The notes beneath the pieces were generated by a model, which was not told the origin of the DNA, did not search any database, and saw only the letters and a program-made list of their open reading frames with translations. Positions 9,852 through 36,484 of a stretch of DNA of 64,000 bases are shown here, piece by piece; positions within the stretch are counted from its first letter, which is position 1, and each line of letters starts with the position of its first letter. Location: assembly GCA_018969185.1 (NCBI GenBank), contig JAGWYT010000001.1:13959-77958 (forward strand), written 5' to 3'. This stretch comes from Rickettsiales bacterium. GTDB taxonomy: Bacteria > Pseudomonadota > Alphaproteobacteria > Rickettsiales > UBA1997. Position numbers and translations under genes: made by a program.

Positions 9852-11858
9852 TTAACAACTTTTAGAAGAAATTTCCTTCAAATTTCCTGGTAGAGAAATA
9901 AACACATTACTTCTATCACTTGCCATGCTGCTCCAGAATTCAAGGATTCGGTAGAGATCATCATAATCATTTCCTTTAATAAAATAATCATCAAATCCTG
10001 CACTAAGTATTTTATAAATTTGTAGTTTGTGATTATCTCCGGTAATTGCAATTACTGGTGTGCGGCTGGAATTATTATTTTTTTGAAATTTTCTGATTTC
10101 TTCAACAGCTTCAATGCCGTCCATTTTTGGCATTTCGATATCCATCAAAATTAAATCATAATTATTTTTTTTGATTAGACCAATTGCTTCTGAACCGTCT
10201 CTTGCCTTGTCAATTTCAACTTGATATTTAGACAAATATTTCGCGGTAATAATTAAATTACTTTCTTCATCATCAGCAATTAAAACTCTTTTCTTGCGTA
10301 AATATTCTTGATTTCTTGCTTCTTTAACTTCGTCTTTAAGCTTTACCATTCCCCATTTTGAAACCATTTTCAGTAATATTGCTGGAGAAGATGATTTAGA
10401 AACATAACCATTAAAACCAGAGGTTTTTAAATCACTAATTACTAAATCAAGATTCTTTGATGAATAAGCAAGAACAGGAGTGCCATTGTTAAATTTCCTA
10501 ATTTCTTTTGTGGTTAAAATGCCATCAATTTCAGGCATTTCTATATCCATCAATATTACATTATATCTGTTATTCTTAATCAAATCTAAAGCTTCATTGC
10601 AATTTGTTGCTTTGTCACATCTTGTGGCATATAGGCTTTTTTCTAAGAATGATTTTGTAACCATCAAATTAGTTTCCTGATCATCAACTATTAAAATCTT
10701 ATTTTCAGATTCATTTTGATAAGTTTCATTTGTAACTTTTGGAAATTCTAAAACAAATTCCGTAAATTTCCCTTCTTCGGAATTGCACAAGATATCGCCA
10801 TTAATTGAGCGCATTGATCTTTTGCAAAATGTTAAACCAAGACCAGTGCCGCCTTTTTTCCCTGAAGTTGAAAATGCGCCAAATATTCCATCTAACTTAC
10901 TTGCGGGAATTCCTGGACCATTATCACGAAAATAAATTCTGTTAAATTGATCTTTACCATCTTCAATTCTGATGATGATGTGCAAGTCAGGGGTTGAAGA
11001 TGCGTAATATAGAGAATTCTTCAATAAATTGAAAAATACGTAAATTAAAGAATTTTCATTACATCTAATTTTAAAATCATGTTCTCTTTCGGCGTTAACA
11101 GTAATTTTCGCTTTTTCATTATCTTTAAATGCATATTCATCGATAACTTTCTTGATAATTGTTGTTGCAGGAACAACATGTAAATTGCCTACAATGGCAG
11201 ATTTGCCACTAATATTATTTAAAATAATATCTATAATGGCATTGCCTCTGGTGGCTGATCTATCAGCTAAATCAAGCGATGAGATAATATCTTGAAAATC
11301 CTGTTTGGTTAGTGGAGTTATTTTTTCTGCAGCGCCATTACAGAATCTTTCTTGTTGATGAGCAGCAGATAATCTTTCTTTAACTAACTTAGTTGATTGT
11401 CTAACGTTACTTAATGGATTTCTCATTTCATGAGCAATTGAGCCGCTTAAGCTGATGTAATTTTGTCTTATTTCAAATTCTTCTAAGGCTTTGGTCAAAA
11501 TTGCTTTGGTATTTTCAAAATCCCAAGGTTTTGTTAAGTAGGCAAAAACATTACCCTTATTTATAGCTTCAATATTATTTTCAAGGCTGGCGTAAGCAGT
11601 TGTAAGAATTCTAACTATATTACGATTTTTTTCTTTGACTAAAGCAAGCAAATCAACGCCGCTGGCTGTTGGCATTTTTTGATCTGTAACTACAACGGCG
11701 ATTTCTTCAGGTTTTTCATCAATAATTCTTAAAATTTCACTTGGATCACTTGTAGCAATAACTTTAAAAAATTGACCAAATAACTTGTCGAAATATTTAA
11801 CCGAGTTTTCTTCGTCGTCTAAAAATAATATGTAAAATTTTGATCTGATATTATCCAT
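9852..11858 (-). CDS. Hybrid signalling protein: receiver - histidine kinase - receiver - receiver
   Basis: Start taken at the ATG at 11858 (MDNIRSKFYILFLDDEE). REC1 is of the TDQKMP...RILTTAY...TKPWD type. H-box SIAHEMRNPL. HATPase boxes LLKNSLYYA, DNGPGI, GGTGLGL. Two further RECs (ILMDIEMPEIDG; ILMDIEMPKMDG). Confidence 0.85.
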   Translation of the reverse strand: MDNIRSKFYILFLDDEENSVKYFDKLFGQFFKVIATSDPSEILRIIDEKPEEIAVVVTDQKMPTASGVDLLALVKEKNRNIVRILTTAYASLENNIEAINKGNVFAYLTKPWDFENTKAILTKALEEFEIRQNYISLSGSIAHEMRNPLSNVRQSTKLVKERLSAAHQQERFCNGAAEKITPLTKQDFQDIISSLDLADRSATRGNAIIDIILNNISGKSAIVGNLHVVPATTIIKKVIDEYAFKDNEKAKITVNAEREHDFKIRCNENSLIYVFFNLLKNSLYYASSTPDLHIIIRIEDGKDQFNRIYFRDNGPGIPASKLDGIFGAFSTSGKKGGTGLGLTFCKRSMRSINGDILCNSEEGKFTEFVLEFPKVTNETYQNESENKILIVDDQETNLMVTKSFLEKSLYATRCDKATNCNEALDLIKNNRYNVILMDIEMPEIDGILTTKEIRKFNNGTPVLAYSSKNLDLVISDLKTSGFNGYVSKSSSPAILLKMVSKWGMVKLKDEVKEARNQEYLRKKRVLIADDEESNLIITAKYLSKYQVEIDKARDGSEAIGLIKKNNYDLILMDIEMPKMDGIEAVEEIRKFQKNNNSSRTPVIAITGDNHKLQIYKILSAGFDDYFIKGNDYDDLYRILEFWSSMASDRSNVFISLPGNLKEISSKSC

Positions 11859-12009
11859 TTTTTGTGGTTTTAACAAAACTTTTAAATATAGGGACAATCA
11901 GGACAGCATATTAATAAGCCTTATGCAATGATAAGTAATTGCCAATGACATTGAATTTCTACATTGCTTCAAAATTAAACAGGAGCTGAAGCTCTGACTA
12001 CTAGAAACA

Positions 12010-18200: not shown

Positions 18201-21200
18201 ATTGTAGTAAGTTTCTAAATACTGATACTCAGAGTTGGACATATTTAGGAAATTGGCGTGATGGAAATTTCGGCGGAGCTTACCATGAAGCCTATAGTAC
18301 AACACAAGGATCGATCATACAAAATACTACTGCATCAGAAATTTTCTCAGGAAGAACTCTTAATTTGGAAGCAACTAATATAACTAATGAAGCTTCTAAT
18401 ATATTTAGCGTTTCTTCGATGTTTATTAACGCACAAACTCTCAGCAATAATTCATTTCAATATAGTAAAGATGTTTATTATGAGCCAATTAATGCCTATG
18501 GAAGAATGCAATATCATTATGGTTTTTCTACTCCACAAACTTTATTGGCTTTAATTAAAAGTGGTAGTTCCACACCAATCACAAATCTCACATCGCTTAG
18601 TAATGTAACTATTGCTCCGAATGTAGTTGAAGGGGCTTCAACACAATATTTAACTACTAGCAGTCTATCAACTAATATCGGTCAAGATACGACACTTGGT
18701 GGTGGAAGCATTACTAAATCCACCACAGTAAACAACATAGACATTTACACACTTGCAGAAAGCGGTGTTGTTGATGTTGATTTATCTTCAATTACCAATG
18801 CTATAGGAAATAATAATGGCAAAAAAGAAGCTTCAAAACAAGATGTTTCTGACAGTAATTCAGGAAGAAAAGTTGAAGATGCTGTTAAAGAACAAAGCGT
18901 AACGAAAGGTGATGCGTTAAATTTAACATCCACTTCATCAGAAATTGATTCTTCTAGTTCTGATGATGGAGTTGATGCTGTTGATTCTAAAACTGTAACT
19001 AAAAAAGATGTTGATATTACAACTTCCACAATTACCGCTTCAACATCAGATACAATTTTTTCTGGTTCATATAAGATTAATCTTGATGCAGCAGCTACAA
19101 CTCCACTTGTTGAATCAAGAAGTCAATTTACAGATGTGAGCAAATTCTTTGGTTCCTCTTATTACTTTGACCAGCTTGGCTTGAATGGTTCTTCTGTTTT
19201 AGCTGATATTGATCGTCAAACCAGAAATACTAATATTAGAATGCTTGGCGATGCTTTTGTTGAAACCACTCTTATTTTAAATCAGTTACAAAAATTGACG
19301 AATGATTCATTATTTCTATCAAAAACAACAACCGATCCAAATGAGCAAATAAAAGAACTTCTTGATAATGCGGTTAATCAATTTGCGGCTCTTGGTTTAA
19401 ATGCTGAAGATGTTGCAACTAAAGGTCTTACAGCTTCGCAGGCAAATTCACTTACAAAAGATATTGTAACTTTTGAATTGACGAAGGTTAATGGCGTGAA
19501 TGTTTTGGCTCCGAAGATTTATTTAAGCCAAAGCACAAGAAATCGTCTTTTAGGAACTGATGCTGCGCTTGCAACTAACTCAACAATATTTGCTAAAGAT
19601 AATCTTACAATTGATGCTTCAACAGCAGATTTATTAAATACTGGATCAATTATTGCGGGTAATAATTTAACTTTAAATATTGGCAGTTTAAACAGTTCGT
19701 CGGGAGGTTCTGGAAATCTTGGCACCACAGCAATAAACTCACTTGCAAAAATTAAGGCAGGCAATGATTTAACAATTACTGCTAATAATCCGATCACAAC
19801 TTCCTTTGATACAAATTCTTTTGGCATTGCTAATGTAATTCAACCTTTATCAATTCCAACTTCAGGAATTACACTACAAAATACTTATTTAAGTTCAGGT
19901 GGAAAAACTTCACTTTCAGCACTTGGTGATATTTCCATTAAGAATGATGATGCGTTAAAATTAACAACAATTTCTGATATTTTTGCGGCGTCAAATTTAT
20001 CAGTGAATTCAGCTTTAAGTTCTTCATCAAGGATTGCTTCTAAATTTTCGGCATCAGATGTGTTGGCTTTAACTTCAGCTTCTATTTCCTCACCAAAAGA
20101 CGACGCAGCAGCAGCAAGGGCTGCTCTTACTTTTAATGCGGGAAGTGATATTGAAATTACGTCACTTGGCAATATTAATATTGCGAATAATTATACTAAT
20201 TCTGGTGGCAGTATTTTTATGAGTGCGGCAAATAATATTAATAATAGTAATTATACAGTTTATGCCAGTGACAATGTTGTGATGGATGCGAATAATATTA
20301 ATAATATCCATACGGTTGGTAATAATTCAGAAAGTGAGACCAGAATTGAGGCTGGTAATATTGTATCGTTAAATGCGACGAAAGATGCTGATGGTAATGG
20401 CGGCAACATCAATAACATTGGTGCAACAATTAAAGCTGGAAGTTTGGTTTATTTAACTGCAGATAATAACATAACTAATAAAGCTTTAGTTGAATATAAT
20501 ATTAATGGCGCGGTGTCTTACAGCAGCGGTCTTGGGATTAGTCAAACGGCAAATGATTTTACTAATTCAACTTTAGATGATAATGGTGTTGCCGCTGCGG
20601 ATAATAATCTTTTGAGCGCGGGAGGCAATTACATCAGGTCTAATTTGATTTCACAGGGAAATATCATAGCTGGTGACAGTAGCACAGGAACAGTTGGCAA
20701 TGTTGTTATGGTTGCAGGAAATAATTTAAATAATATTGGCTCTAACATTACAGCAACGGGCGATTCTTATCTTGAGGCGACTAATGGCAACATAAACATT
20801 ACCATTGCCCTTTTAAGAGACAGAACTGTTGCAACTTGGGGAAGTAAGAAGAAAGGTGGAATTTCAGTTTCGGATAATACCAGCAACATTCAAAGTAATG
20901 TAAGTGCAGGAACTTTAGGAAGTGGAACTCTTGATGTTCTTGCTGGCATAGATTCTTCATCATTAATTTCCTCAACAAGTGAAGTTGGTAATATTAATAT
21001 TAATGGTTCTAATTTAAGCAGTGCTGATGATTTAACACTCACTGCTCAAAATGATGTTAATATAATTTCTGCACAAGATAAGACTTATAGTTTCAGTGCG
21101 GGAAGGATTGGTAAAGGTAAATCATACTCAAATACATCAAGTTCAACAACTCAAGTTGCAAGTGTTTTAAGTACAACTAATAATGGTGATATTTCAATTA

Positions 21201-27390: not shown

Positions 27391-27494
27391 ATTTTACTTG
27401 ATTAAAAATCATATTAACTATATTAACCATACTGGTTATATCAATTAATATGGTTAAAATAATTTTTATTTTTATGATTATAGAAGCAACTGCA

Positions 27495-27746
27495 ATGAAG
27501 CTTCGCCAAAATCTTGGTGAAATGATAAATCAGGTTCAATATCGCAATGCCGTTATTGAAATTACCAAAAGCTCTAAGCCTGTAGCTGCTTTGATTGGTA
27601 TTGAAATGTTTGAGAAAATTCAATTAATGCAAAAGGAATTTGATGCTGTTACTAAAAAAATAAGATCTTCTTTTAAAGATTCTTCTGCCGCTGAAATTGA
27701 AGATTTAATTAACGATGCAGTAAAAAAATCTCGTCGTAAAAAATAA
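27495..27746 (+). CDS. Phd/YefM-type antitoxin
   Basis: MKLRQNLGEMINQVQYRNAVIEITKSSKPVAALIGIEMFEKI fits the Phd/YefM N-terminal fold pattern. The true start is uncertain (27450, 27474 or 27495). TAATG overlap with the PIN gene. Confidence 0.8.
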   Translation: MKLRQNLGEMINQVQYRNAVIEITKSSKPVAALIGIEMFEKIQLMQKEFDAVTKKIRSSFKDSSAAEIEDLINDAVKKSRRKK

Positions 27747-28156
27747 TGAAAATAGTTCTTGATACTAATGTTTTTGTTTCTGGTTTATTCTTCCCAAAAA
27801 GCAATGCTGGAAGGATTCTGAATTCCTGTATTGAGGGTAAATTTAATTTGTGCTTAAGCGATGAGTTGTTGTCTGAAATTGAAAAAGTGCTTTTTTATCC
27901 AAAAATCAGAAAGCGTTTAAACTTATCTCAATTAGAAATTGAAAATTATTGTTCTCTTCTGCGGTTTAAATTTGAGATGTTTGGTATTAAAAATGTTAGA
28001 GCAAGTGTTGTAAAAGATAAAAAAGATAACCACATTTTAGCAACATTTATTGCAAGTGATGCTGATTATTTAATTACAGGAGATGATGATTTATTATCAA
28101 TGTCCGATGAATATAACATAGTTTCTTTAAGTGAATTTGTTAAAAAGTATTTTTAA
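27746..28156 (+). CDS. PIN-domain toxin (PIN_3 / TIGR00305-like)
   Basis: 136 aa. MKIVLDTNVFVSG (first acidic residue), DKKDNHILATFIASDADYLITGDDDLL (C-terminal acidic cluster). Confidence 0.85.
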   Translation: MKIVLDTNVFVSGLFFPKSNAGRILNSCIEGKFNLCLSDELLSEIEKVLFYPKIRKRLNLSQLEIENYCSLLRFKFEMFGIKNVRASVVKDKKDNHILATFIASDADYLITGDDDLLSMSDEYNIVSLSEFVKKYF

Positions 28157-28953: not shown

Positions 28954-29421
28954 ATGAAAACTTCCCACAAGTGGTTTTTGATTTCAATCATTCTAACTCT
29001 CTCATCTTGCCAATCAAATTTTCTGCATAAAAGCAAATATCAAAAAATGCATGATCACAAAGCCAGCAAAGTCTTGCGTGAAATTTTTGATTTTTATTCC
29101 AGAATTAATTGCCCAGATGCTGCAACTAAAGGTGCCAAAGCTTTTAACAAAAAACAATTTGCAATGTTAAGAGAGAAATTTTTTGTTTTAGACATTCAAG
29201 AAAATGAATATTTGGAATATGTAATGAATATTGCAATAGTACCTAAAAATTATCCCAAGAAAGTAAAAATATGGCGATTGGTTTTAGCTAAAAGCAAATG
29301 GGAAAAAAGTGGTTATGAGATAATTAAATTCGATGAATATCCATTTAAAGATGTTGAAGGTGAAAAATTATTATTTGATCAAGAATATTCAAAATATTGG
29401 GTAGAGTCCGAGATTTATTAA
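28954..29421 (+). CDS. Lipoprotein, unknown function
   Basis: 155 aa. Signal/lipobox WFLISIILTLSSC. No recognisable domain. Confidence 0.55.
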   Translation: MKTSHKWFLISIILTLSSCQSNFLHKSKYQKMHDHKASKVLREIFDFYSRINCPDAATKGAKAFNKKQFAMLREKFFVLDIQENEYLEYVMNIAIVPKNYPKKVKIWRLVLAKSKWEKSGYEIIKFDEYPFKDVEGEKLLFDQEYSKYWVESEIY

Positions 29422-29488
29422 GCATTTAACCGTTCTGTGTAAATTTCGGGAGTTTGTTTCTGTTGTACCACAATAAATTTGGAAATTA

Positions 29489-29553
29489 AATCACCACGTC
29501 TTGGAAATGCTTTGCACTTTGATCCACGATCTTTGTAAAAAGAGGATTTAAGA
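29489..29553. repeat. Degenerate half-copy of palindromic family B
   Basis: aaatcaccacgtcttggaaatgctttgcactttgatccacgatctttgtaaaaagaggatttaaga parallels aaatcacccgtcttgaaattgccaaagcaatttcaagccaccatcttttacaaagagggtttaaaa (B2). Confidence 0.45.
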
Positions 29554-29763
29554 GATGTGCAACATATTGTGCCAAGTTTTAGCATTTTTGCCGGCTATTT
29601 ATTTTTACTTTTGACTTTTTGAAGAATTCTAAGAAGATCTAAAAAAATCCCACAAATTTTACTTTGCCACAAATGAAAAATCTTCACGAAGAATATAAAA
29701 AATCAGACCAGGAATTAAGAATAAAGAGGTCGATGATGTTTCTTGATTTGATTAGGAGGTGCG

Positions 29764-32337
29764 ATGTCAGAAAATACTAATTATCAAAATATATTAAAAG
29801 AATCCTATTCTAGTTATGATTTAAATGCTAGAAAACAAAGGCTTAGAATAGGTTTGTTCATAGCTTTAGCATTTGTAGCGGCTTTTGGAATTCTGGATTT
29901 CTTTTATTATCGATCTGATTTTATTTTATTAATTACAATTCGATTCGTAACGGAAGTTGTTTTGATAACTCTATTTTTTATCCTTCGCTTAAGTAGTGGT
30001 GAAAGGATAAAAATGTTAGAAAAGATTTGGGCTATTTTTTTATTCATATTTATAGATGTACTCATTTTTTTCACTGAAGGAGCTACATCTTCCTATTATG
30101 CTGGTCTAAACTTGACGGTCGTTGCGATGTCAGTATTGATGTTGTGGACTTTTAAAGAAGCATTATTTGTATGTTTCTCTTTAGTTTTTTTATACATAAT
30201 AACCATAGTTATACATCATAATATAACAAGGGTTGATTATGATTCACGGGTTCTGGTTAACAATATATTTTTCATTATAGGTACAGCAATAATTTGCGTT
30301 ATTGCAAGTTATGTAAATTCAAAAAAACGCTTCCAAGAATTCTGCCTCAATTACGAACTTGAACAAAACAACCAAAAACTTGCAGCGTTAGATAAAATAA
30401 AATCGCAGTTTTTTGCTAATGTTAGCCATGAATTAAGAACTCCTCTGACCTTGATTTTAGCGCCAACGCAAGACGTGTTGCAGGACACTGGCAATAGCAT
30501 TTCGCAAAAAGTTCAATCTTCTTTAGAAGTGATTAATAAAAATGCTTTACGGCTTTTAAAATTGGTTAATGACCTGCTTGATATAACCAAGCTTGAAGAA
30601 GGAAAATCAGATCTAAAATTACAAAAGCTTGAAGTGAATAATTTGGTTGCGGGTCTTTCAGATTCAGTGTCGCACTTGGCTAAATTGAAGGGAGTTAGAA
30701 TAGTTAAAAATATAATGACCAAAGATTTATTCATTGCGGCGGATGTGGATGCAATGGAAAAAATAATTTTAAATCTTCTTGGTAATGCCATTAAATTTAC
30801 TGATAAAGGCGGAGAAATAAAGGTTTCAACCTCTATTCAAGAAAATGACATTGTGATTTCAATTGCAGATGATGGCATTGGAATTAGCTCTGATAATTTG
30901 CCTTATATTTTTGATCGCTTCAAACAAGTTGACAGTTCAAGCACCAGAAAATATCAGGGAACTGGTTTAGGCCTTGCTTTGGTGAAGGAGTTAACCGAAT
31001 TGCAAAAAGGGCAAGTGAGTGTTGAAAGTGTGATAGATAATGGAACTATTTTTAAATTATCTTTCCCAAGATTGACTGAGAAGAATCTTGACGTTGTTGG
31101 TTTATTATCTGAAGAGGAAGATGCTGATATTCTAAAAATGACAAAAATGGCGCGCCGAGTAATGCCAAAAATTGTTGATGAAGAGTCAGATCAAGAGTTT
31201 AGTTTTGTTAATCGTGATGCCAAGACAGTGTTGGTTGCAGAGGATGAGCCTGACATGAGCAGTTATATAACAAATCTTGTCAAAGGCGAAGGTTATAATG
31301 TTATTAAGGCGAAGGACGGCAAGGTGGCGCTTGAACTGGCTAATAGATTTTCTCCTGATTTGATAATACTTGATTTGATGCTTCCTGAAATTGATGGTTT
31401 GTTAATTTGCGAACAGTTGAAATCAGATGATAGAACCAGATTTATCAAGATTATAATGGTGACAGCGCGAAGTGACGAAAAATCAAAATTAACCGCTTTA
31501 AAAAATGGTGTTGATGATTTTGTTAATAAGCCTTTTAGCAGCAGTGAGCTTAAGGCAAGAATAAATAACATCTTAAAATCTGATAGGTTACAAAAAGATA
31601 TGTATCAGCAATTAAGAAAAGCGATGGATCAATTAACTTTGGCACAAAACAGGCTGGTGCGCAGTGAGAAGCTGAATATTATGGGCAGGCTGCCAGAAGA
31701 GATTATGCATGGGGTGAAAAACCCTCTAAATTATATGGTTACTGCGCTTTATTCAATGAAGCTGGATCCAACGGTGAACAGCGATCCAGAGCTAATTAGC
31801 ATTATCAGAGACGTGGAAGATGGGGTAAAAAGGATTGATGACATAGTGTCCGATATTAGGTCTTTTGCTGATTTTAGTGAGATTGACAGAACAAAATTCT
31901 TGATTAAAGATGCGGTTGATGATGCTGTGAAATTTATTAGATATGAATTAAGAAATATAAAAGTTGATTTGGATGTTGATAATAAATTATATGTGATAGC
32001 ATCAAAAAATCACATTACACAGGTACTGATAAATTTAATTAGTAATGCAATTAAAGCCATAATTGCATCTGAAAATAATGTTGGAAAAATTACGATCAGA
32101 TGTAAACATGAGGAAAATAAAGCAGTAGTTACGGTAAGTGATAATGGTATTGGAATTAGAAATGAGGATTTGAAAGTAATTTTTAATCCTTTTTTCACAA
32201 CCAAAGATATTGGATCCGGAATTGGTCTGGGGCTTAATATTAGCTATGTTATAATCAATAATCACAATAGCGAATTAAAAGTTATTAGTGAATTTGGCAA
32301 AGGCAGCAGCTTTTATTTTGACTTACCGATTTGGTGA
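29764..32337 (+). CDS. Membrane sensor with two kinase cores: TM domain - HisKA/HATPase - receiver - second HisKA/HATPase (PhcS-PhcR-like fusion), paralog 1
   Basis: 857 aa. RBS aggaggtgcgATG. About 6 TM helices. H-box 1 FANVSHELRTPL, with N/G boxes LLGNAIKFT, DDGIGI, GTGLGLALV. REC VLVAEDEPDM...IILDLMLPEIDG...NKPF. Second core SEKLNIMGRLPEEIMHGVKNPLNY, LINLISNAIKA, DNGIGI, GSGIGLGL. Confidence 0.9.
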   Translation: MSENTNYQNILKESYSSYDLNARKQRLRIGLFIALAFVAAFGILDFFYYRSDFILLITIRFVTEVVLITLFFILRLSSGERIKMLEKIWAIFLFIFIDVLIFFTEGATSSYYAGLNLTVVAMSVLMLWTFKEALFVCFSLVFLYIITIVIHHNITRVDYDSRVLVNNIFFIIGTAIICVIASYVNSKKRFQEFCLNYELEQNNQKLAALDKIKSQFFANVSHELRTPLTLILAPTQDVLQDTGNSISQKVQSSLEVINKNALRLLKLVNDLLDITKLEEGKSDLKLQKLEVNNLVAGLSDSVSHLAKLKGVRIVKNIMTKDLFIAADVDAMEKIILNLLGNAIKFTDKGGEIKVSTSIQENDIVISIADDGIGISSDNLPYIFDRFKQVDSSSTRKYQGTGLGLALVKELTELQKGQVSVESVIDNGTIFKLSFPRLTEKNLDVVGLLSEEEDADILKMTKMARRVMPKIVDEESDQEFSFVNRDAKTVLVAEDEPDMSSYITNLVKGEGYNVIKAKDGKVALELANRFSPDLIILDLMLPEIDGLLICEQLKSDDRTRFIKIIMVTARSDEKSKLTALKNGVDDFVNKPFSSSELKARINNILKSDRLQKDMYQQLRKAMDQLTLAQNRLVRSEKLNIMGRLPEEIMHGVKNPLNYMVTALYSMKLDPTVNSDPELISIIRDVEDGVKRIDDIVSDIRSFADFSEIDRTKFLIKDAVDDAVKFIRYELRNIKVDLDVDNKLYVIASKNHITQVLINLISNAIKAIIASENNVGKITIRCKHEENKAVVTVSDNGIGIRNEDLKVIFNPFFTTKDIGSGIGLGLNISYVIINNHNSELKVISEFGKGSSFYFDLPIW

Positions 32338-32422
32338 TATTTGGTTAAGTTTTTGATGTAATCTATAATTGTTACAATTTTCCAATTTATATAATAACTT
32401 TGAAAATTATTAATTTGTTCGG

Positions 32423-33811
32423 ATGGAAAAAGTAAATTTTGTAGATAATGAATTAGTTGTTTTTAAGAATAGTCAAGGTCTGAAGGCTCGCGGTACTCTG
32501 CTCAAATTGTCTCAAAACTATATAGTTTTCGAGGTTTATAATCCATATTCGATAGTTCAGTTAAGTGAGGTTTTAAATGAGTTAACAATTACAAGAGCTG
32601 AGAAGCAGATATACTGTGGTAAAGCAATTGTAACAAATATTGTTAATACTGGGATAATTTTAATTGTTTCAGCAACTCTTTCAGATGTATATTGGAAAAG
32701 CACTGTTGATATTGACTCGCAAGAAGATATTCAAAAGGAAATAAAGTTTCTGATTGATAGTTTTGATTTAACACAAAAGATTAGTCCTGAGTTTAGATTG
32801 AATATTTTATCAATAAGATCATTTCTATCAGATATAAAGAATTGGCTTGAAAAACTAGAACCATCTCTTGAAAAAGCTAATATTGAAATAAGCTCTGATT
32901 TTATGTTAACCAATTTTTCTTCTTTATTTAAGAAAGCTGATCAATTAAGTCATGAATTTCATGATCTATCATTGCAGATTTCCAAGGATGAAATTGATTG
33001 TTATAGAGATTTTACTCAGGGTTTGTTGCATCCTTTCTTTATGTCTTCGCCATTTCCTTACAGGGTTTATTCAAAGCCCTTAGGATACGCCGGTGATTAT
33101 GAAATGATGAGAATGATTCAAAGAGAAAATGCTGAAGGTCCTAATCTTTTTGCAAAGTTTGTTAATGTTTTTTACACAAATATTCCAATTGCAAATTCTG
33201 TAAAAAATAGAACCAATAGATTAGTAGGATTGATTGAGGAAGGTGTTAAACTAGCAGAACAAAAAAACGAAGAATATAATTCCCTCAGTATAGGCTGTGG
33301 TCCAGCTTTGGAAGTAAAGCAATTTATAGAAAATAATTTTCCTAAAACAAAATGTAATTTTAAGCTGTTAGATTTTAATGAAGAGACTATGAATTTTGCG
33401 GTGAATCAAGCAAATAACGTTAAAAAAGATAAATCATGCGAGATTAGTGGTGAACTGAATTCAGTTCATGAACTTTTAAAAAGAAGCATCAACAAAAAAG
33501 AAGAAGAAGAAAGGTATGATTTAGTTTATTGTTCTGGATTATTTGACTATCTATCAGATAGAGTTTGTTCTAAGTTGGTAAAATTATTTTACTCTATGGT
33601 TAAGCCAGGTGGAAAAGTTTTTGTTACTAATATGCATTCTAATAATTACCATCATCATTTAATGGAAATTATATTTGAGTGGTATTTGATTTATAGAGAT
33701 GAAAGAGTTATTGCCGATTTCGCACCTGGTTTAGGAAAACAGAAGATTTATACAGATTCAACTGGAGTTAATTTATGTTTGGAAATTATCAAAGAAACTT
33801 CTGATAAATGA
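32423..33811 (+). CDS. PhcB-like class I SAM-dependent methyltransferase with a long N-terminal non-catalytic region
   Basis: 462 aa. C-terminal MTase motifs LSIGCGPALE (motif I), KLLDFNEE, YDLVYCSGLFDYLSD (motif II), GGKVFVTN (motif III). The first ~90 aa are beta-rich and weakly PilZ-like (KARGTLLKLSQNYIVFEV). The stop overlaps the next kinase start (ATGA at 33808-33811). The PhcB assignment rests on architecture and context, not on a search. Confidence 0.7.
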   Translation: MEKVNFVDNELVVFKNSQGLKARGTLLKLSQNYIVFEVYNPYSIVQLSEVLNELTITRAEKQIYCGKAIVTNIVNTGIILIVSATLSDVYWKSTVDIDSQEDIQKEIKFLIDSFDLTQKISPEFRLNILSIRSFLSDIKNWLEKLEPSLEKANIEISSDFMLTNFSSLFKKADQLSHEFHDLSLQISKDEIDCYRDFTQGLLHPFFMSSPFPYRVYSKPLGYAGDYEMMRMIQRENAEGPNLFAKFVNVFYTNIPIANSVKNRTNRLVGLIEEGVKLAEQKNEEYNSLSIGCGPALEVKQFIENNFPKTKCNFKLLDFNEETMNFAVNQANNVKKDKSCEISGELNSVHELLKRSINKKEEEERYDLVYCSGLFDYLSDRVCSKLVKLFYSMVKPGGKVFVTNMHSNNYHHHLMEIIFEWYLIYRDERVIADFAPGLGKQKIYTDSTGVNLCLEIIKETSDK

Positions 33812-36477
33812 TTGACGAGAAATATCGTAATAGTTTAAGAGAGCCTTATCAGAAATATGATATTGAAGAACTATATAAAAATAGGCTTAGCCTGATAATA
33901 GTTATTAGTATCATATTTATTGTGTTTTTTGGAGCTCTTGATGTTGTAATGTATAAGGAAGTATGTTTAGAGCTAATAATGGCAAGGTTGGTTGTCGATT
34001 TGTTTTTAATGCTTACTTTGTTCGTAGTGCACAGAAAGTTAGTAAATTTAAAACTAGTTAGTTTTATTTGGAGTCTTGCGGTAATAGTTTTAATTGATGT
34101 TTTGATAATAATTACGGGGGAGGGACCGCTTTCTCCGTATTACGCTGGTTTAAATTTAGTAATAGTATCTTCTGCAGCTCTTCTTTCTTGGAAATGGTAT
34201 GAAATGAGTTTCATATGTATTCTGATGTTAGTATCGTATGCTATCTCTTCCGTTGCTAGTTTGAATCATACTTATGAAGTTAATCTTAACTTCCCAATGC
34301 TCATAAATAATCTATTCTTTTTATTTTCTACTAGTTGTTTTTGTACTCTAGCGGCATACCTTAATTATAGACAACGCTTCAAAGAATTCTGCCTTAACTA
34401 CGAATTGGAAGAAAAGAACAAAAAACTAGCCGCAATTGATGAAATGAAATCAGAGTTTTTTGCTAATGTTAGTCATGAATTTAGAACTCCATTAACTTTG
34501 ATTTTAGGGCCAATACAAGATGTGTTACATGGTTCTCTGAAACTGCCAGATAAGGTGGCGTCAATTCTTGATATTATTCAACAAAATGCTTTGCGACTTT
34601 TAAAATTAGTAAATGATTTGCTTGATGTAACAAAGTTGGAAGAGAGAAAATTTAATGTAAAATTACAAAAGACTGAAGCAAATAAATTAATTGGCGGGCT
34701 TGCGGATTCAATGGCTCTGATGGCTTCTTCCAAAGAAATTGAGATTGTAAAAAATATTAGTAAGGAAGATTTATTTATTGCAATTGATGCTGATGCAATG
34801 GAAAAAATAATTCTCAATTTGCTGAACAACGCCATTAAATTTACTCCTAATGGTGGTGTTATTAATGTTTCAACAGTAAAAGAAATTTACACAATCAGCA
34901 ATAAAAAGCAGGGTGAAATTCAAAAAGAAAATATCGTAATCACCGTTAAAGATAATGGTATAGGAATTGATGCAGAAAATTTACCGCACATTTTTGAACG
35001 CTTCAAACAGGTTGATAGTTCAAGCACCAGAAAATATCAGGGAACAGGTTTAGGGCTTTCATTAGTGAAAGAATTAACTGAATTGCAAGGTGGCAAAGTT
35101 AAAGTAGAAAGTGCTCCTAATCAAGGAACCAGCTTTGCATTAATATTTCCGGCTTTTGAAGAGCAAATGCTTGCTAAAAAAGAAGAAATTCAAAAGGAAG
35201 AAGTTAAAATTGAAGCGAATCCATCTAATGCTCACGAATTAAAAGTGGAAGAAGATAAATTATCAAATATTCACAAAATGGCGGTGAGAGCAAGAAAAGT
35301 AACTAATGATGATGATCACGGTTTGGAAGAGGTGGTTGGCAAAATTAATCAGGATGCAAAAACAATATTGGTGGCAGATGATGAGCCTGACATGCGCTAT
35401 TACATTGTCAGTATTTTGAAGGAAGAAGGATATAATATTATTCAATCAAAAGATGGCAGAGCCGCGCTTGAAATGGTTAAAAAATATAATCCTGATTTAA
35501 TTGTGCTGGATTTGATGATGCCTGAAATTGATGGTTTGTCTGTGTGCGATATTATTAGAAAAGATGAAAATATGAAGATGACCAAAATAATAATGCTTAC
35601 AGCAAGAAGTGACGAAGGCTCTAAAATCAAGGCATTACAAAATGGTGTGGATGATTTTGTGAATAAGCCTTTTGGCAGCACGGAAATAAAAAGCCGAATT
35701 AAAAATTTATTGCAAAATAGTGAATTGCAAAAAGAAGTATTTCATAAGAATTTAGATCTAACAAAAACTTTAACTGATTTACGTTCAACCCAAGCACAAC
35801 TTGTGCAAAGTGAAAAGATAAATGCAATTGGAAGCCTTTCTGCTGGTTTGTTGCATGAGGTGAATAATCCGCTTAATTACACAATGACAGCAGTGCAGCT
35901 AATGAAGATGGAGCCTGCGGTGAATGCTGATGCTGATTTAAAAGATACTCTGAAAGATATTGAAGAAGGCATGACGCGAATCAAAGATATTGTTAGTGAT
36001 TTGCGCGCTTTTGCTTATCCTGAAGAAGCGGACAAGAAAGTTCAATTCCCAATTCGTGATGCAATTGAAAGCACGTTGCGCTTCACGGCAAGTGAAACAA
36101 AAGATATTGAAAAAATAATTAATGTGGCGCCAGAGCTTATGGTGAGCGCGTCAAAAACTCATATTGTGCAAGTGTTAATTAACTTAGTTTCAAATGCAGC
36201 AAGAGCAATTAGCAAAGCGAATCGTGAAAAAGGTGTGATTACAATTGATGCTAAAGAAGAAAATGGTCGCATCAAAATTTCTGTTTCTGACAATGGAACT
36301 GGCATGAATGAAGAAACTTTAAAAAGAGTTTTTGATCCGTTCTTTACAACTAACGAAGTGGGGAAAGGCATGGGTCTTGGCTTAAGCGTTAGTCACACAA
36401 TTATTAAAAATCATGGTGGAAATTTGGCGGCGGAAAGTGTGCTTGGAGAAGGCAGTAAATTTTATTTTGAGCTTTAA
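33808..36477 (+). CDS. Membrane sensor with two kinase cores (PhcS-PhcR-like fusion), paralog 2
   Basis: 889 aa. Same architecture as 29764..32337, with long near-identical blocks (RFKEFCLNYELEEKNKKLAAIDEMKSEFFANVSHEFRTPLTLIL; ALRLLKLVNDLLDVTKLEE). REC ILVADDEPDM...IVLDLMMPEIDG. Canonical second H-box LSAGLLHEVNNPLNY, then LINLVSNAARA, DNGTGM, GKGMGLGL. Confidence 0.9.
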   Translation: MIDEKYRNSLREPYQKYDIEELYKNRLSLIIVISIIFIVFFGALDVVMYKEVCLELIMARLVVDLFLMLTLFVVHRKLVNLKLVSFIWSLAVIVLIDVLIIITGEGPLSPYYAGLNLVIVSSAALLSWKWYEMSFICILMLVSYAISSVASLNHTYEVNLNFPMLINNLFFLFSTSCFCTLAAYLNYRQRFKEFCLNYELEEKNKKLAAIDEMKSEFFANVSHEFRTPLTLILGPIQDVLHGSLKLPDKVASILDIIQQNALRLLKLVNDLLDVTKLEERKFNVKLQKTEANKLIGGLADSMALMASSKEIEIVKNISKEDLFIAIDADAMEKIILNLLNNAIKFTPNGGVINVSTVKEIYTISNKKQGEIQKENIVITVKDNGIGIDAENLPHIFERFKQVDSSSTRKYQGTGLGLSLVKELTELQGGKVKVESAPNQGTSFALIFPAFEEQMLAKKEEIQKEEVKIEANPSNAHELKVEEDKLSNIHKMAVRARKVTNDDDHGLEEVVGKINQDAKTILVADDEPDMRYYIVSILKEEGYNIIQSKDGRAALEMVKKYNPDLIVLDLMMPEIDGLSVCDIIRKDENMKMTKIIMLTARSDEGSKIKALQNGVDDFVNKPFGSTEIKSRIKNLLQNSELQKEVFHKNLDLTKTLTDLRSTQAQLVQSEKINAIGSLSAGLLHEVNNPLNYTMTAVQLMKMEPAVNADADLKDTLKDIEEGMTRIKDIVSDLRAFAYPEEADKKVQFPIRDAIESTLRFTASETKDIEKIINVAPELMVSASKTHIVQVLINLVSNAARAISKANREKGVITIDAKEENGRIKISVSDNGTGMNEETLKRVFDPFFTTNEVGKGMGLGLSVSHTIIKNHGGNLAAESVLGEGSKFYFEL

Positions 36478-36484
36478 GCGTTAA

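What the first reader, a model, noticed from the sequence alone, without database searches (positions are those of the whole stretch)
29764..32337. Sensor architecture with two complete kinase cores separated by a receiver, present twice
Both 857-aa and 889-aa proteins read as ~6 TM helices, then HisKA (SHE[LF]RTPL) + HATPase, a receiver (DLM[LM]PEIDG), and finally a second, different-class H-box (HE-x-NNPL type) + HATPase. Ordinary hybrid kinases end at the receiver or an HPt domain. A second full catalytic core downstream of the receiver means the receiver may gate a second kinase, giving an intramolecular kinase cascade. It equals a covalent fusion of the separate PhcS and PhcR proteins of Ralstonia. 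The two paralogs are nearly identical around the first DHp helix but diverge in the membrane domain, consistent with two ligand specificities.
Basis: seen in the sequence. Interest (0 to 1): 0.65.

Follow-up and report, generated by a model that had tools for sequence, protein, structure and literature searches.

The report
Double-kinase PhcS-like quorum sensors, duplicated
Two neighbouring membrane sensor proteins each carry two complete kinase units separated by a receiver domain. They flank the gene for a Ralstonia-type quorum-signal methyltransferase, which makes them an undescribed long version of the PhcS receptor and not a PhcS-PhcR fusion.

Summary
Both ORFs (29764-32337, 857 aa; 33808-36477, 889 aa) read 6 TM helices, HisKA+HATPase, receiver, then a second DHp+HATPase, with all catalytic boxes present.

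The architecture is not unique:
- Transmitter-receiver-transmitter kinases are known (TodS, LvrA).
- Full-length relatives fill a 120-hit list from several phyla.

The useful result is the context. The gene between the two sensors is a PhcB-type methyltransferase, and a PhcQ-like regulator follows, so this is a phc-type quorum-sensing cassette in a Rickettsiales MAG.

The "PhcS+PhcR fusion" reading fails:
- The kinase core of 76 Burkholderiales PhcS proteins matches the C-terminal core (median 43% identity, 212 bits). It matches the first core only weakly (53 bits).
- PhcR matches a separate 681-aa ORF in the window better.
- Salinisphaera has the long sensor and a PhcR-like gene in the same operon.

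The protein is therefore a PhcS sensor plus a PhcS-type core, with a canonical kinase-receiver module between them. The most likely mechanism is an LvrB-like receiver-gated second kinase that feeds the PhcQ-like regulator.

The upstream paralog belongs to a clade whose second core is decaying. The window copy has H-G where 115 of 118 relatives have H-E.

Verdict: new variant of a known kind, moderate interest.

The parts
29764..32337 (+). HK1, 857 aa: HK1-type (upstream) paralog of the long PhcS-like sensor (6TM, HisKA/CA, REC, DHp2/CA2)
   Evidence: ORF and translation; Pfam; exact match P0121, annotated 'MAG: Rickettsiales bacterium'; paralog-clade assignment
29764..30318 (+). HK1 membrane sensor domain (aa 1-185, six hydrophobic segments, weakly MASE8-like in relatives)
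   Evidence: Hydropathy. Aligns with the PhcS TM domain at 24-31% identity. No Pfam hit for the window copies even at E<=10.
30319..31083 (+). HK1 first kinase core: signalling helix + DHp1 (His222, codon 30427-30429) + CA1
   Evidence: Pfam HisKA 213-280 and HATPase_c 327-436; H-box1 invariant in 118 relatives; N/G1/F/G2 boxes present
31225..31572 (+). HK1 internal receiver (aa 488-603, phospho-acceptor Asp537, codon 31372-31374)
   Evidence: Pfam Response_reg 489-601; DD/D/T/K residues conserved
31573..32334 (+). HK1 alpha-S helix + second, PhcS-type core (DHp2 with His649-Gly650, codons 31708-31713; CA2)
   Evidence: 35% identity to the Ralstonia PhcS core; colinear with LvrB; alpha-S is 3 aa shorter than the family norm, and H+1 is Gly, unique among 118
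32423..33811 (+). PhcB-type class I SAM-dependent methyltransferase (462 aa), putative signal synthase
   Evidence: Pfam methyltransferase hits, all below Pfam's own gathering cut-offs; relatives named by JGI as the 3-OH-palmitic acid methyl ester biosynthesis protein; 33-40% identity over ~450 aa to PhcB in 80 Burkholderiales phcBSRQ loci
33808..36477 (+). HK2, 889 aa: HK2-type (canonical) paralog. Its start overlaps the MT stop by 4 nt. Key residues His223 (34474-34476), Asp568 (35509-35511), His683 (35854-35856).
   Evidence: invariant residues; AlphaFold model pLDDT 86 with continuous helices TM6-to-DHp1 (162-241) and REC alpha5-to-DHp2 (624-700); top PDB fold match is LvrB
35677..36474 (+). 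HK2 alpha-S + PhcS-type second core (aa 624-889)
   Evidence: 43% identity and 224 bits to the Ralstonia PhcS core; median 212 bits against 76 PhcS proteins; groups with PhcS cores in an NJ tree, far from the first cores
36934..37579 (+). Toxin-antitoxin pair (Gp49/HigB-like + HI1420/HigA-like) inserted between HK2 and the regulator gene
   Evidence: Pfam; absent at this position in relatives L083 and L001, where the regulator follows the sensor directly
37601..38776 (+). PhcQ-like response regulator (391 aa: REC plus a C-terminal domain with no family match), probable phosphoryl acceptor of the second core
   Evidence: Pfam REC only; 35% identity over 260 aa to Ralstonia PhcQ (E 2e-48); 39% over 210 aa to the P. 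graminis homolog; same position in L001, L083, L084, L085, L086 and L087
9852..11897 (-). PhcR-like REC-HK-REC-REC protein (681 aa), about 18 kb upstream. In relatives it sits next to the cassette.
   Evidence: Pfam; 27.6% identity over 387 aa to Ralstonia PhcR (E 4e-34) and 32% to the Salinisphaera PhcR-like protein; 66% to the L083 663-aa protein that adjoins the cassette
48086..49390 (+). FadL/TodX-type outer-membrane channel; possible route for a hydrophobic signal (association is tentative)
   Evidence: Pfam Toluene_X, E 5e-81. A homologous gene lies two genes upstream of the first sensor in relative L083, separated from it by the REC-HK-REC-REC gene.

Best explanation
The locus is a phc-type quorum-sensing cassette in a Rickettsiales MAG. 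Its order is HK1, PhcB-like methyltransferase, HK2, (TA insertion), PhcQ-like regulator. A PhcR-like REC-HK gene and a FadL-type channel, which lie beside the cassette in the close relative L083, are far from it in the window.

Each sensor is a long form of PhcS. It has the PhcS-type six-helix membrane domain and, at the C-terminus, the PhcS-type kinase core. A canonical HisKA/CA kinase and a receiver sit between them.

Proposed mechanism:
1. A lipid-like methyl-ester signal made by the methyltransferase is sensed in the membrane domain (inferred).
2. TM6 continues as one helix into DHp1 and sets autophosphorylation of His222 (HK1) or His223 (HK2). The helix geometry is modelled; the regulation is inferred.
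3. The phosphoryl group passes to the internal Asp537/568 (inferred by analogy with LvrA).
4. The phosphorylated receiver switches on the second kinase through the continuous alpha5/alpha-S/DHp2 helix, as shown experimentally for LvrB (inferred here).
5. His683~P is transferred to the PhcQ-like, and perhaps the PhcR-like, regulator. This is inferred because PhcS, whose core is the ortholog of core 2, is thought to serve those receivers in Ralstonia.

HK2 is the conserved, canonical copy. HK1 belongs to an older paralog clade with a 3-residue shorter alpha-S helix and a degenerating second core. It may act as a modulator or phosphatase, or respond to a different ligand.
For: - Domain architecture and intact catalytic residues.
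- PhcB homology and phcBSRQ-like gene order: MT, sensor, REC protein.
- The PhcS TM domain aligns with the HK1/HK2 TM domain, and the PhcS core aligns with core 2. The P. graminis PhcS-like protein equals HK1 minus about residues 208-615. For 76 PhcS proteins the median is 212 bits to HK2 core 2 against 53 bits to core 1. In an NJ tree the PhcS cores are sister to the long-form core 2 group, with PhcR cores and then core 1 outside.
- PhcQ and PhcR counterparts are separate genes.
- REC-core2 is colinear with LvrB in sequence (E 1e-17) and LvrB is the best PDB fold match.
- The AlphaFold model shows single helices 162-241 (TM6 through His223) and 624-700 (REC alpha5 through His683).
- The ATP-binding boxes of core 2 are conserved across the family. 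This argues that core 2 is a working autokinase and not only a phosphotransfer helix.
- The LvrB activation mechanism and the LvrA His218-to-Asp524 transfer are experimental (PMC13269768, PMC5863495).
Against: - No biochemistry exists for any member of this long family.
- The only experimentally dissected T-R-T kinase, TodS, uses a His-Asp-His-Asp relay, not allosteric gating.
- The AlphaFold model is a monomer, and the alpha-S/DHp2 junction (668-682) has pLDDT below 50.
- No PhcA-type LysR regulator is present in the window, so the output is unknown.
- The MT product is unknown. At 35% identity to PhcB the substrate could differ.
- HK1 lacks the acidic residue next to His649, so the scheme may not apply to HK1.
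- The family's D-to-His2 spacing varies by 3-4 residues, not clean heptads (112/115/119).
- The window is from a MAG, so single-residue peculiarities could be assembly errors.
Confidence: 0.6

Rival explanations
1. TodS-type four-step phosphorelay. His223 autophosphorylates and passes the phosphoryl group to Asp568, which passes it on to His683 of the second DHp. That DHp acts like an HPt domain, and the group then goes to the PhcQ-like regulator. The second CA domain contributes only basal autokinase activity.
For: - TodS has a comparable transmitter-receiver-transmitter order, with an additional PAS domain before its second core, and was shown to work as a His1-Asp1-His2-Asp2 relay with two autokinase domains (PMC4321377, PMC3018481).
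- The Red system's second transmitter also receives phosphoryl groups from a receiver.
- HK1's loss of the acidic residue next to His649 would matter less for a pure phosphotransfer role.
Against: - The N, G1, F and G2 boxes of core 2 are conserved across the family. This is unexpected if ATP binding by CA2 were dispensable.
- REC and DHp2 are joined by one long helix, as in LvrB, where the receiver gates the kinase allosterically (PMC13269768).
- That geometry places the Asp far from the His of the same chain.
Confidence: 0.2
2. One reading: the protein is a covalent fusion of PhcS (sensor + first core) with PhcR (receiver + second core).
For: - The locus really is phc-like.
- PhcR has the REC-HK order, and its HK part is closer to core 2 than to core 1 in the NJ tree.
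- Weak colinear alignments of PhcR to the C-terminal halves exist (52-60 bits, 22% identity).
Against: - PhcS cores match core 2, not core 1.
- In the segment-wise BLAST at E<=1e-5, the PhcR receiver hit the PhcQ-type receiver of the 391-aa protein and gave no hit to the internal receiver.
- PhcR's best full-length matches are separate genes: window ORF 9852..11897 (123 bits) and Salinisphaera 387 aa (157 bits).
- The long sensor and a PhcR-like gene coexist in one operon in Salinisphaera and in L087.
Confidence: 0.04
3. The second core is largely vestigial or acts only as a phosphatase or docking module. On this view the proteins are ordinary hybrid kinases (sensor-HK-REC) whose output leaves from the receiver, or the core-2 dimer merely scaffolds the PhcQ-like regulator.
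For: - In the HK1-type clade the second core is visibly decaying. P0132 and P0216 have Gln in place of His and have lost the N/G1/G2 boxes. HK1 itself has Gly at H+1. Core 1 and REC stay intact in all seven members.
- Locus L087 has the sensor split after the receiver (625 + 248 aa).
Against: - In the family as a whole His2 is kept in 116 of 118 members and Glu/Asp at H+1 in 117 of 118.
- The HK2-type clade keeps DHp2 at 84% and CA2 at 75% identity.
- The short PhcS of Burkholderiales keeps precisely this core, and its His230 is required in Ralstonia (PMC11960443).
Confidence: 0.12

Closest known systems
Ralstonia/Cupriavidus phcBSRQ quorum-sensing operon (PhcB methyltransferase, PhcS sensor kinase, PhcR REC-HK, PhcQ REC protein)
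   Same: - The gene order MT, membrane sensor kinase, REC protein is shared.
- MT is 33-40% identical to PhcB across 80 Burkholderiales loci.
- The sensor TM domain is 24-31% identical to that of PhcS.
- The C-terminal core is 35% (HK1) and 43% (HK2) identical to the PhcS core.
- The 391-aa regulator is 35% identical over 260 aa to PhcQ.
- A PhcR-like REC-HK exists elsewhere in the window.

   Different: - In PhcS (442-450 aa) the sensor joins the kinase core directly. Here a complete HisKA/CA kinase and a receiver (about 410 aa) lie between them.
- The sensor gene is duplicated and flanks the MT.
- The PhcR-like gene carries two extra receivers and is not in the cassette.
- No PhcA is seen in the window.
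- The host is a low-GC Rickettsiales MAG, whereas the literature describes phc clusters as restricted to Betaproteobacteria (PMC10653808).
LvrA / LvrB of pathogenic Leptospira
   Same: - LvrA is PAS-DHp-CA-REC-DHp-CA, the same T-R-T order.
- The best NCBIfam hit of both window proteins is the LvrA model, as one colinear stretch (197-855 against profile positions 186-817 of 819).
- LvrB (REC-alphaS-DHp-CA) is the top PDB match in sequence and in fold for the C-terminal half.

   Different: - LvrA is cytoplasmic with a PAS sensor. The window proteins have a six-helix membrane sensor.
- Scores of 341 and 314 bits are far below the LvrA model cut-off of 1200.
- Identity to LvrB is about 26%.
- The genomic context differs: there is no PhcB in the lvr locus, and LvrB signals to the anti-sigma factor LvrC.
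TodS/TmoS/StyS double sensor kinases (TodS/TodT of Pseudomonas putida)
   Same: They have two autokinase cores separated by a receiver in one polypeptide, followed by a separate response regulator. They are the textbook T-R-T-R system.
   Different: - TodS is soluble, with two PAS domains (seven domains in all), and senses aromatics.
- Its mechanism is a His-Asp-His-Asp relay.
- No specific sequence relationship to the window proteins was seen here. TodS did not appear among the listed best NCBIfam or PDB hits.
MASE8 membrane sensor domain (Pfam PF20968)
   Same: Most full-length relatives carry a precomputed PF20968 hit over the same about 150 residues, with six helices.
   Different: The window copies give no MASE8 hit even at E<=10, and relatives rescanned here score 9-18 bits against a cut-off of 26.2. 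At best this is a divergent offshoot.

Membership tests
Phc-type quorum-sensing cassette (phcBSRQ) | PhcB-type SAM-dependent methyltransferase adjacent to the sensor gene | tested here: met
   Window MT 32423-33811 is 33-40% identical over ~450 aa to the MT of 80 Burkholderiales phcBSRQ loci, including 9 Ralstonia. JGI's own name for relatives is '3-hydroxypalmitic acid methyl ester biosynthesis protein'.
Phc-type quorum-sensing cassette (phcBSRQ) | PhcS-type polytopic membrane sensor domain | tested here: met
   The TM domains of HK1/HK2 align colinearly with PhcS residues ~5-200 at 24-31% identity (43-72 bits) in 70-73 of 76 PhcS proteins. The YYAGLNL and NN motifs are shared.
Phc-type quorum-sensing cassette (phcBSRQ) | PhcS architecture: the sensor domain joins a single HE-x-NNP-type kinase core directly (~445 aa) | tested here: not met
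   About 410 residues (HisKA/CA + REC) separate the sensor from the PhcS-type core. The PhcS-type core itself is present (43% identity, 224 bits).
Phc-type quorum-sensing cassette (phcBSRQ) | PhcQ-type REC protein encoded downstream | tested here: met
   Window 37601-38776 is 35% identical over 260 aa to Ralstonia PhcQ (E 2e-48) and occupies the same position in six relatives' loci.
Phc-type quorum-sensing cassette (phcBSRQ) | PhcR-type REC-HK protein in the operon | tested here: inconclusive
   It is not in the cassette. The best counterpart is ORF 9852-11897 (-), 18 kb away: REC-HK-REC-REC, 27.6% identity over 387 aa to PhcR, E 4e-34. Its ortholog adjoins the cassette in L083.
Phc-type quorum-sensing cassette (phcBSRQ) | PhcA (LysR) output regulator, and a 3-OH fatty acid methyl ester as the signal | not testable with these tools
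   No LysR-type ORF appeared among the window ORFs scanned.
Transmitter-receiver-transmitter (T-R-T) double sensor kinases (TodS, LvrA) | Two DHp+CA cores, each with a phosphorylatable His and ATP-binding boxes, separated by a receiver with the acceptor Asp | tested here: met
   Caveat: HK1 has Gly in place of the conserved Glu next to the second His.
Transmitter-receiver-transmitter (T-R-T) double sensor kinases (TodS, LvrA) | Phosphoryl flow His1 to Asp to (His2 or activation of core 2) to a partner receiver | not testable with these tools
   Needs phosphotransfer assays with His/Asp point mutants.
LvrA (NCBIfam NF047465, hybrid_HK_LvrA) | Score at or above the curated cut-off (1200 bits) | tested here: not met
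   341.1 and 314.2 bits. The architecture is the same, but these are not LvrA orthologs.
Rec-controlled histidine kinases (LvrB type) | REC, continuous alpha5/alpha-S helix, DHp, CA, all colinear | tested here: met
   phmmer hit to LvrB 8vc9_A, E 1e-17, residues 45-373 against 48-377. The AlphaFold model has a single helix 624-700. Foldseek's top PDB hit is LvrB over 387 columns.
MASE8 (Pfam PF20968) | Score at or above the gathering threshold (26.2 bits) | tested here: not met
   No hit for the window N-termini at E<=10. Relatives score 8.7-17.7 bits, although precomputed tables list PF20968 for most relatives.

The most novel reading that the evidence does not exclude
The long transmitter-receiver-transmitter sensor may be the general, possibly ancestral, receptor of PhcB-type methyl-ester quorum sensing. 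It occurs across Alpha- and Gammaproteobacteria, Verrucomicrobiota and Planctomycetes, and the well-studied short PhcS of Burkholderiales could be a deletion derivative of it.

The interposed kinase-receiver stage would add a gain or threshold step, or a checkpoint for a second input.

In this Rickettsiales lineage an old duplication may have produced a second receptor whose output core is turning into a pseudokinase or phosphatase. The pair would then integrate two signals with opposite sign.
Probability: 0.3. Interest if true: 0.6.

Novelty: new variant of a known kind. Interest (0 to 1): 0.42.

Why it matters
**Distribution.** Phc quorum sensing is treated in the literature as a Ralstonia/Cupriavidus, betaproteobacterial speciality (PMC10653808). 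Here, PhcB-linked cassettes turn up in a Rickettsiales MAG, Salinisphaera, a Verrucomicrobiota MAG and a Planctomycetes MAG. In every non-Burkholderiales locus examined the receptor is the long double-kinase form. If this holds, ortholog surveys based on the short PhcS have under-counted this signalling system.

**Experimental handle.** The short PhcS and the long sensor form a natural comparison pair for one sensor and one output core, with and without an intervening kinase-receiver stage. This could be used to ask what an intramolecular kinase cascade adds, such as thresholding, amplification or a phosphatase checkpoint. That question is still open for TodS and LvrA.

**Ecology.** A quorum-signal system in a Rickettsiales-affiliated genome rich in giant surface proteins is of ecological interest.

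**Limits.** The T-R-T architecture itself is not new, and nothing here is biochemically shown.

Tried and rejected
- **PhcS+PhcR fusion.** Tested by segment-wise BLAST against 80 Burkholderiales phcBSRQ loci and an NJ tree of cores. Rejected.
- **LvrA orthology.** Same architecture, but the score is far below the family cut-off. Rejected as membership and kept as an analogy.
- **MASE8 assignment of the sensor.** The window copies give no hit. Left as 'weakly related at best'.
- **Recent gene conversion between the paralogs around DHp1.** DNA identity is at most 81% over 167 nt. Rejected.
- **Promoter and terminator scan of 29300-39400.** Counts equal those of shuffled sequence, so it says nothing about operon structure.
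- **Direction of evolution (insertion or deletion).** The NJ tree makes short and long forms reciprocally monophyletic sister groups, so this stays unresolved.
- **Heptad periodicity of linker lengths.**
  - TM-to-His1 spacing is 33, with two cases of 40 (+7).
  - Asp-to-His2 spacing is 112, 115 or 119, which is not a clean heptad series.
  - No conclusion was drawn.
- **The look-up of encoding contigs for the Nitrococcus protein P0201.** Returned nothing.
- **Literature searches.** No paper was found in the searched library describing PhcB homologs in Rickettsiales or long PhcS forms. This is absence in that library only.
- **PhcA-like LysR regulator in the window.** Looked for among the ORFs scanned and not found.


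Full report
**1. What is in the sequence**

A 462-aa ORF (32423-33811) lies between them, and its stop overlaps the HK2 start by 4 nt.

Pfam finds the following in both proteins:
- HisKA at 213-280.
- Two separate HATPase_c stretches.
- Response_reg at 489-601 (HK1) and 520-632 (HK2).
- A second HisKA stretch is reported for HK2 only.

NCBIfam places the C-terminal part (627-856) with AtoS/ZraS/EspC-class cores and the first core with PhoR/WalK/TorS-class cores.

I aligned 118 full-length relatives:
- H-box1 SHE[LF]RTPL is invariant.
- The N, G1, F and G2 boxes of both cores are present in both window proteins.
- The receiver's DD / D537 (D568 in HK2) / T / K residues are present in both.

Family-averaged hydropathy gives six hydrophobic segments. 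An AlphaFold model of HK2 (118-row alignment, mean pLDDT 86) gives six TM helices.

Per-domain identity between the paralogs:

| Domain | Identity |
|---|---|
| TM | 34% |
| DHp1 | 70% |
| CA1 | 65% |
| REC | 60% |
| alpha-S | 38% |
| DHp2 | 48% |
| CA2 | 46% |

HK1's second H-box is MHGVKNPL. The Gly after the His is unique among the 118 relatives, which have E in 115 and D in 2.

**2. The context identifies the system**

- The middle ORF is a class I SAM-dependent methyltransferase. Its exact sequence is deposited as 'MAG: Rickettsiales bacterium', on a 144-kb contig.
- JGI names its relatives 'extracellular factor 3-hydroxypalmitic acid methyl ester biosynthesis protein', which is PhcB, the Ralstonia quorum-signal synthase.
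- Downstream of HK2 there is first a HigB/HigA-like toxin-antitoxin pair (36934-37579). A 391-aa protein with an N-terminal receiver follows at 37601-38776.
- In the close relative L083 the order is FadL-type channel, REC-HK-REC-REC (opposite strand), 867-aa sensor, MT, 882-aa sensor, 390-aa REC protein. There is no TA pair there.
- L001 is similar.

The cassette sensor-MT-sensor-REC is therefore conserved in this lineage. In the window it has been loosened by insertions:
- The REC-HK-REC-REC gene is at 9852-11897 (-).
- The FadL-type gene is at 48086-49390.
- Giant surface-protein genes lie in between.

**3. Comparison with genuine phcBSRQ operons**

A tblastn of the MT against plasmids found a Paraburkholderia graminis plasmid locus with MT, a 445-aa kinase, and receivers of 134 and 344 aa.

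A scan of GTDB species genomes with a PhcB alignment found at least 592 stretches that encode a relative. The best 80 are all Burkholderiales and include nine Ralstonia and many Cupriavidus. Their gene order is uniform: MT (463-470 aa), PhcS (442-450), PhcR (365-405), PhcQ (328-340).

Segment-wise BLAST gives a clear result:
- The PhcS TM domain aligns with the TM domain of HK1/HK2 (24-31% identity).
- The PhcS kinase core aligns with the second core of the window proteins. Over 76 PhcS proteins the median is 212 bits and 43% identity to HK2 core 2, and 160 bits to HK1 core 2. The first core scores only 53-59 bits.
- The pairwise alignment with the P. graminis kinase shows the junction directly. 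Its residues 189-217 align both with HK1 189-217 (after TM6) and with HK1 608-640 (before DHp2). The short protein therefore equals HK1 minus roughly residues 208-615.
- In a neighbour-joining tree the short PhcS cores are sister to the long-form core 2 sequences. PhcR cores lie outside them, and the first cores are far away.

**4. The fusion hypothesis fails**

- Ralstonia PhcR's best matches are separate REC-HK proteins: Salinisphaera 387 aa (157 bits), L083 663 aa (126 bits) and the window's 681-aa ORF (123 bits, 27.6% over 387 aa).
- Against the C-terminal halves of HK1/HK2, PhcR scores 52-60 bits.
- The PhcR and PhcQ receivers belong to the same class as the receiver of the 391-aa protein (36-53% identity). 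In the segment-wise BLAST at E <= 1e-5 they gave no hit to HK1's internal receiver.
- Salinisphaera hydrothermalis has MT, a long sensor (879 aa), REC-HATPase (387 aa) and REC (382 aa) in a row. L087 has MT, a long sensor split 625+248, REC-HATPase and REC. The long sensor and PhcR therefore coexist.
- PhcQ matches the 391-aa protein over 260 residues, which extends beyond the receiver.

The correct description is a PhcS-type sensor and a PhcS-type core with a canonical kinase-receiver module between them.

**5. How common is it**

- All 120 best hits to HK1 are 765-915 aa, cover 88-100% of it at 39-55% identity, and carry the same Pfam set. Named sources include Rickettsiales MAGs, Nitrococcus mobilis, Salinisphaera, an Ectothiorhodospiraceae isolate, Pelagisphaera and other Verrucomicrobiota, and Gammaproteobacteria MAGs.
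- By inspection, at least 20 contig lengths recur in the PhcB list and the sensor list. This is an indirect sign of linkage.
- Linkage was verified directly in the six fetched non-Burkholderiales loci (L001, L083, L084, L085, L086, L087) and in the window itself.
- A profile of the sensor domain alone, run against 1.84 billion cluster representatives, found 2994 proteins at E<=0.001, 1339 at <=1e-10 and 273 at <=1e-30.

I classified the best 150 of those hits:

| Class | Count |
|---|---|
| Both H-boxes in the long arrangement | 53 |
| Sensor followed by H-box1, sequence truncated | 31 |
| H-box1 present, no H-box2 recognised | 10 |
| Further long forms (839-905 aa) | 9 |
| Short PhcS arrangement | 21 |

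The profile was built from long forms, so this ranking favours them.

T-R-T kinases as a class are known:
- TodS is a T-R-T-R phosphorelay.
- LvrA is PAS-DHp-CA-REC-DHp-CA.
- 51 of 4650 hybrid kinases had two transmitters in a 2010 census.

**6. Mechanism**

Shown here, or modelled:
- TM6 runs as one helix (162-241) through His223.
- REC alpha5 runs as one helix (624-700) through His683, though confidence is low at 668-682 in the monomer model.
- REC-core2 is colinear with LvrB in sequence (E 1e-17), and LvrB is the best PDB fold match.

Established elsewhere:
- LvrA autophosphorylates on its first His and prefers its own Asp.
- Phosphorylation of the LvrB receiver forms an alpha-S coiled coil that frees the CA domain (PMC5863495, PMC13269768).

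Inferred for this locus:
1. Ligand binding in the membrane domain regulates core 1.
2. Core 1 phosphorylates the internal Asp.
3. The phosphorylated receiver activates core 2.
4. Core 2 phosphorylates the PhcQ-like, and possibly the PhcR-like, receiver. These are the partners that PhcS is thought to serve in Ralstonia (PMC11960443, PMC8578825).

Conservation of core 2's ATP-binding boxes favours gating over a pure TodS-type relay. The relay cannot be excluded without assays.

**7. The two paralogs are not equivalent**

- HK1 groups with P0122, P0123, P0126, P0128, P0132 and P0216.
- HK2 groups with P0124, P0125, P0127, P0134 and P0135.
- L083 and a 15-kb contig each carry one of each type, so the duplication predates these genomes.

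The HK2-type clade is tightly conserved (DHp1 96%, DHp2 84%, CA2 75%).

The HK1-type clade keeps core 1 and REC intact but differs in two ways:
- Its alpha-S helix is three residues shorter (Asp-to-His2 spacing 112 against 115).
- Its second core is degenerating:
  - H-D in two members.
  - H-G in the window.
  - Gln in place of His, with loss of the N/G1/G2 boxes, in two members.

From general knowledge of HisKA kinases, and not tested here, the acidic residue after the His is needed for autophosphorylation, while the Asn/Thr four residues on supports phosphatase activity. HK1 keeps Asn653. HK1 may therefore be a modulator or phosphatase-biased receptor. The single Gly could also be a MAG error.

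**8. Novelty and verdict**

The literature I could search treats phc clusters as restricted to Betaproteobacteria (PMC10653808). I found no description of long PhcS forms or of PhcB in Rickettsiales.

- The architecture class is known (TodS, LvrA).
- The signalling system is known (Phc).
- What is new is the combination, its breadth, and the duplicated, diverging pair.

I rate it a new variant of a known kind, of moderate interest.

Noticed in passing
window 12230-23320 (+): A giant 3696-aa ORF whose only family hit is a marginal filamentous-haemagglutinin repeat. It separates the PhcR-like gene from the rest of the cassette.
   Followed up: partly
window 40982-47962 (+): A 2326-aa RTX-type protein (15 HemolysinCabind stretches, a He_PIG Ig domain, HCBP_related). 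It lies between the PhcQ-like gene and the FadL-type channel.
   Followed up: partly
window 27450-28156, 36934-37579, 39366-39644: Several type II toxin-antitoxin modules are present: Phd/YefM + PIN, Gp49/HigB-like + HI1420/HigA-like, and a CopG-like antitoxin. The HigBA-like pair sits exactly between HK2 and its presumed partner regulator and is absent there in relatives L083 and L001.
   Followed up: partly
window 48086-49390 (+); L083 2509-3753: A FadL/TodX-family outer-membrane channel lies two genes upstream of the first sensor in the close relative L083 but is 10 kb away in the window. It could carry a hydrophobic methyl-ester signal across the outer membrane.
   Followed up: no
window 24898-25209 (-), 25546-25827 (+), 25832-26161 (+): Three small paralogous ORFs with the TRL-like domain (PF13146) are clustered together.
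   Followed up: no
L085 1-5562 (Pelagisphaera, Verrucomicrobiota): A large modular polyketide synthase ends 9 nt before the PhcB-like methyltransferase. In that lineage the methylated signal may be a polyketide-derived acid instead of a fatty-acid intermediate.
   Followed up: no
L001 7390-9985: A relative's cassette carries two PhcB-like methyltransferase genes in tandem (356 and 458 aa) together with two sensors. The window has one methyltransferase for two sensors.
   Followed up: no
L002 10733-11137 and Paraburkholderia loci L003-L011: In the graminis/xenovorans group of Paraburkholderia, the PhcR position holds only a ~134-aa receiver (annotated size in L002). Its kinase part has been lost.
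   Followed up: partly
window 56307-58889 (-), 39983-40969 (+), 58919-59881 (+): ORFs of 859, 328 and 320 aa have no Pfam match at E<=0.001.
   Followed up: no
window 49582-50577 (-): A XerC/D-type tyrosine recombinase gene lies next to the FadL-type gene. Together with the TA modules, it fits a region that has been reshuffled.
   Followed up: no
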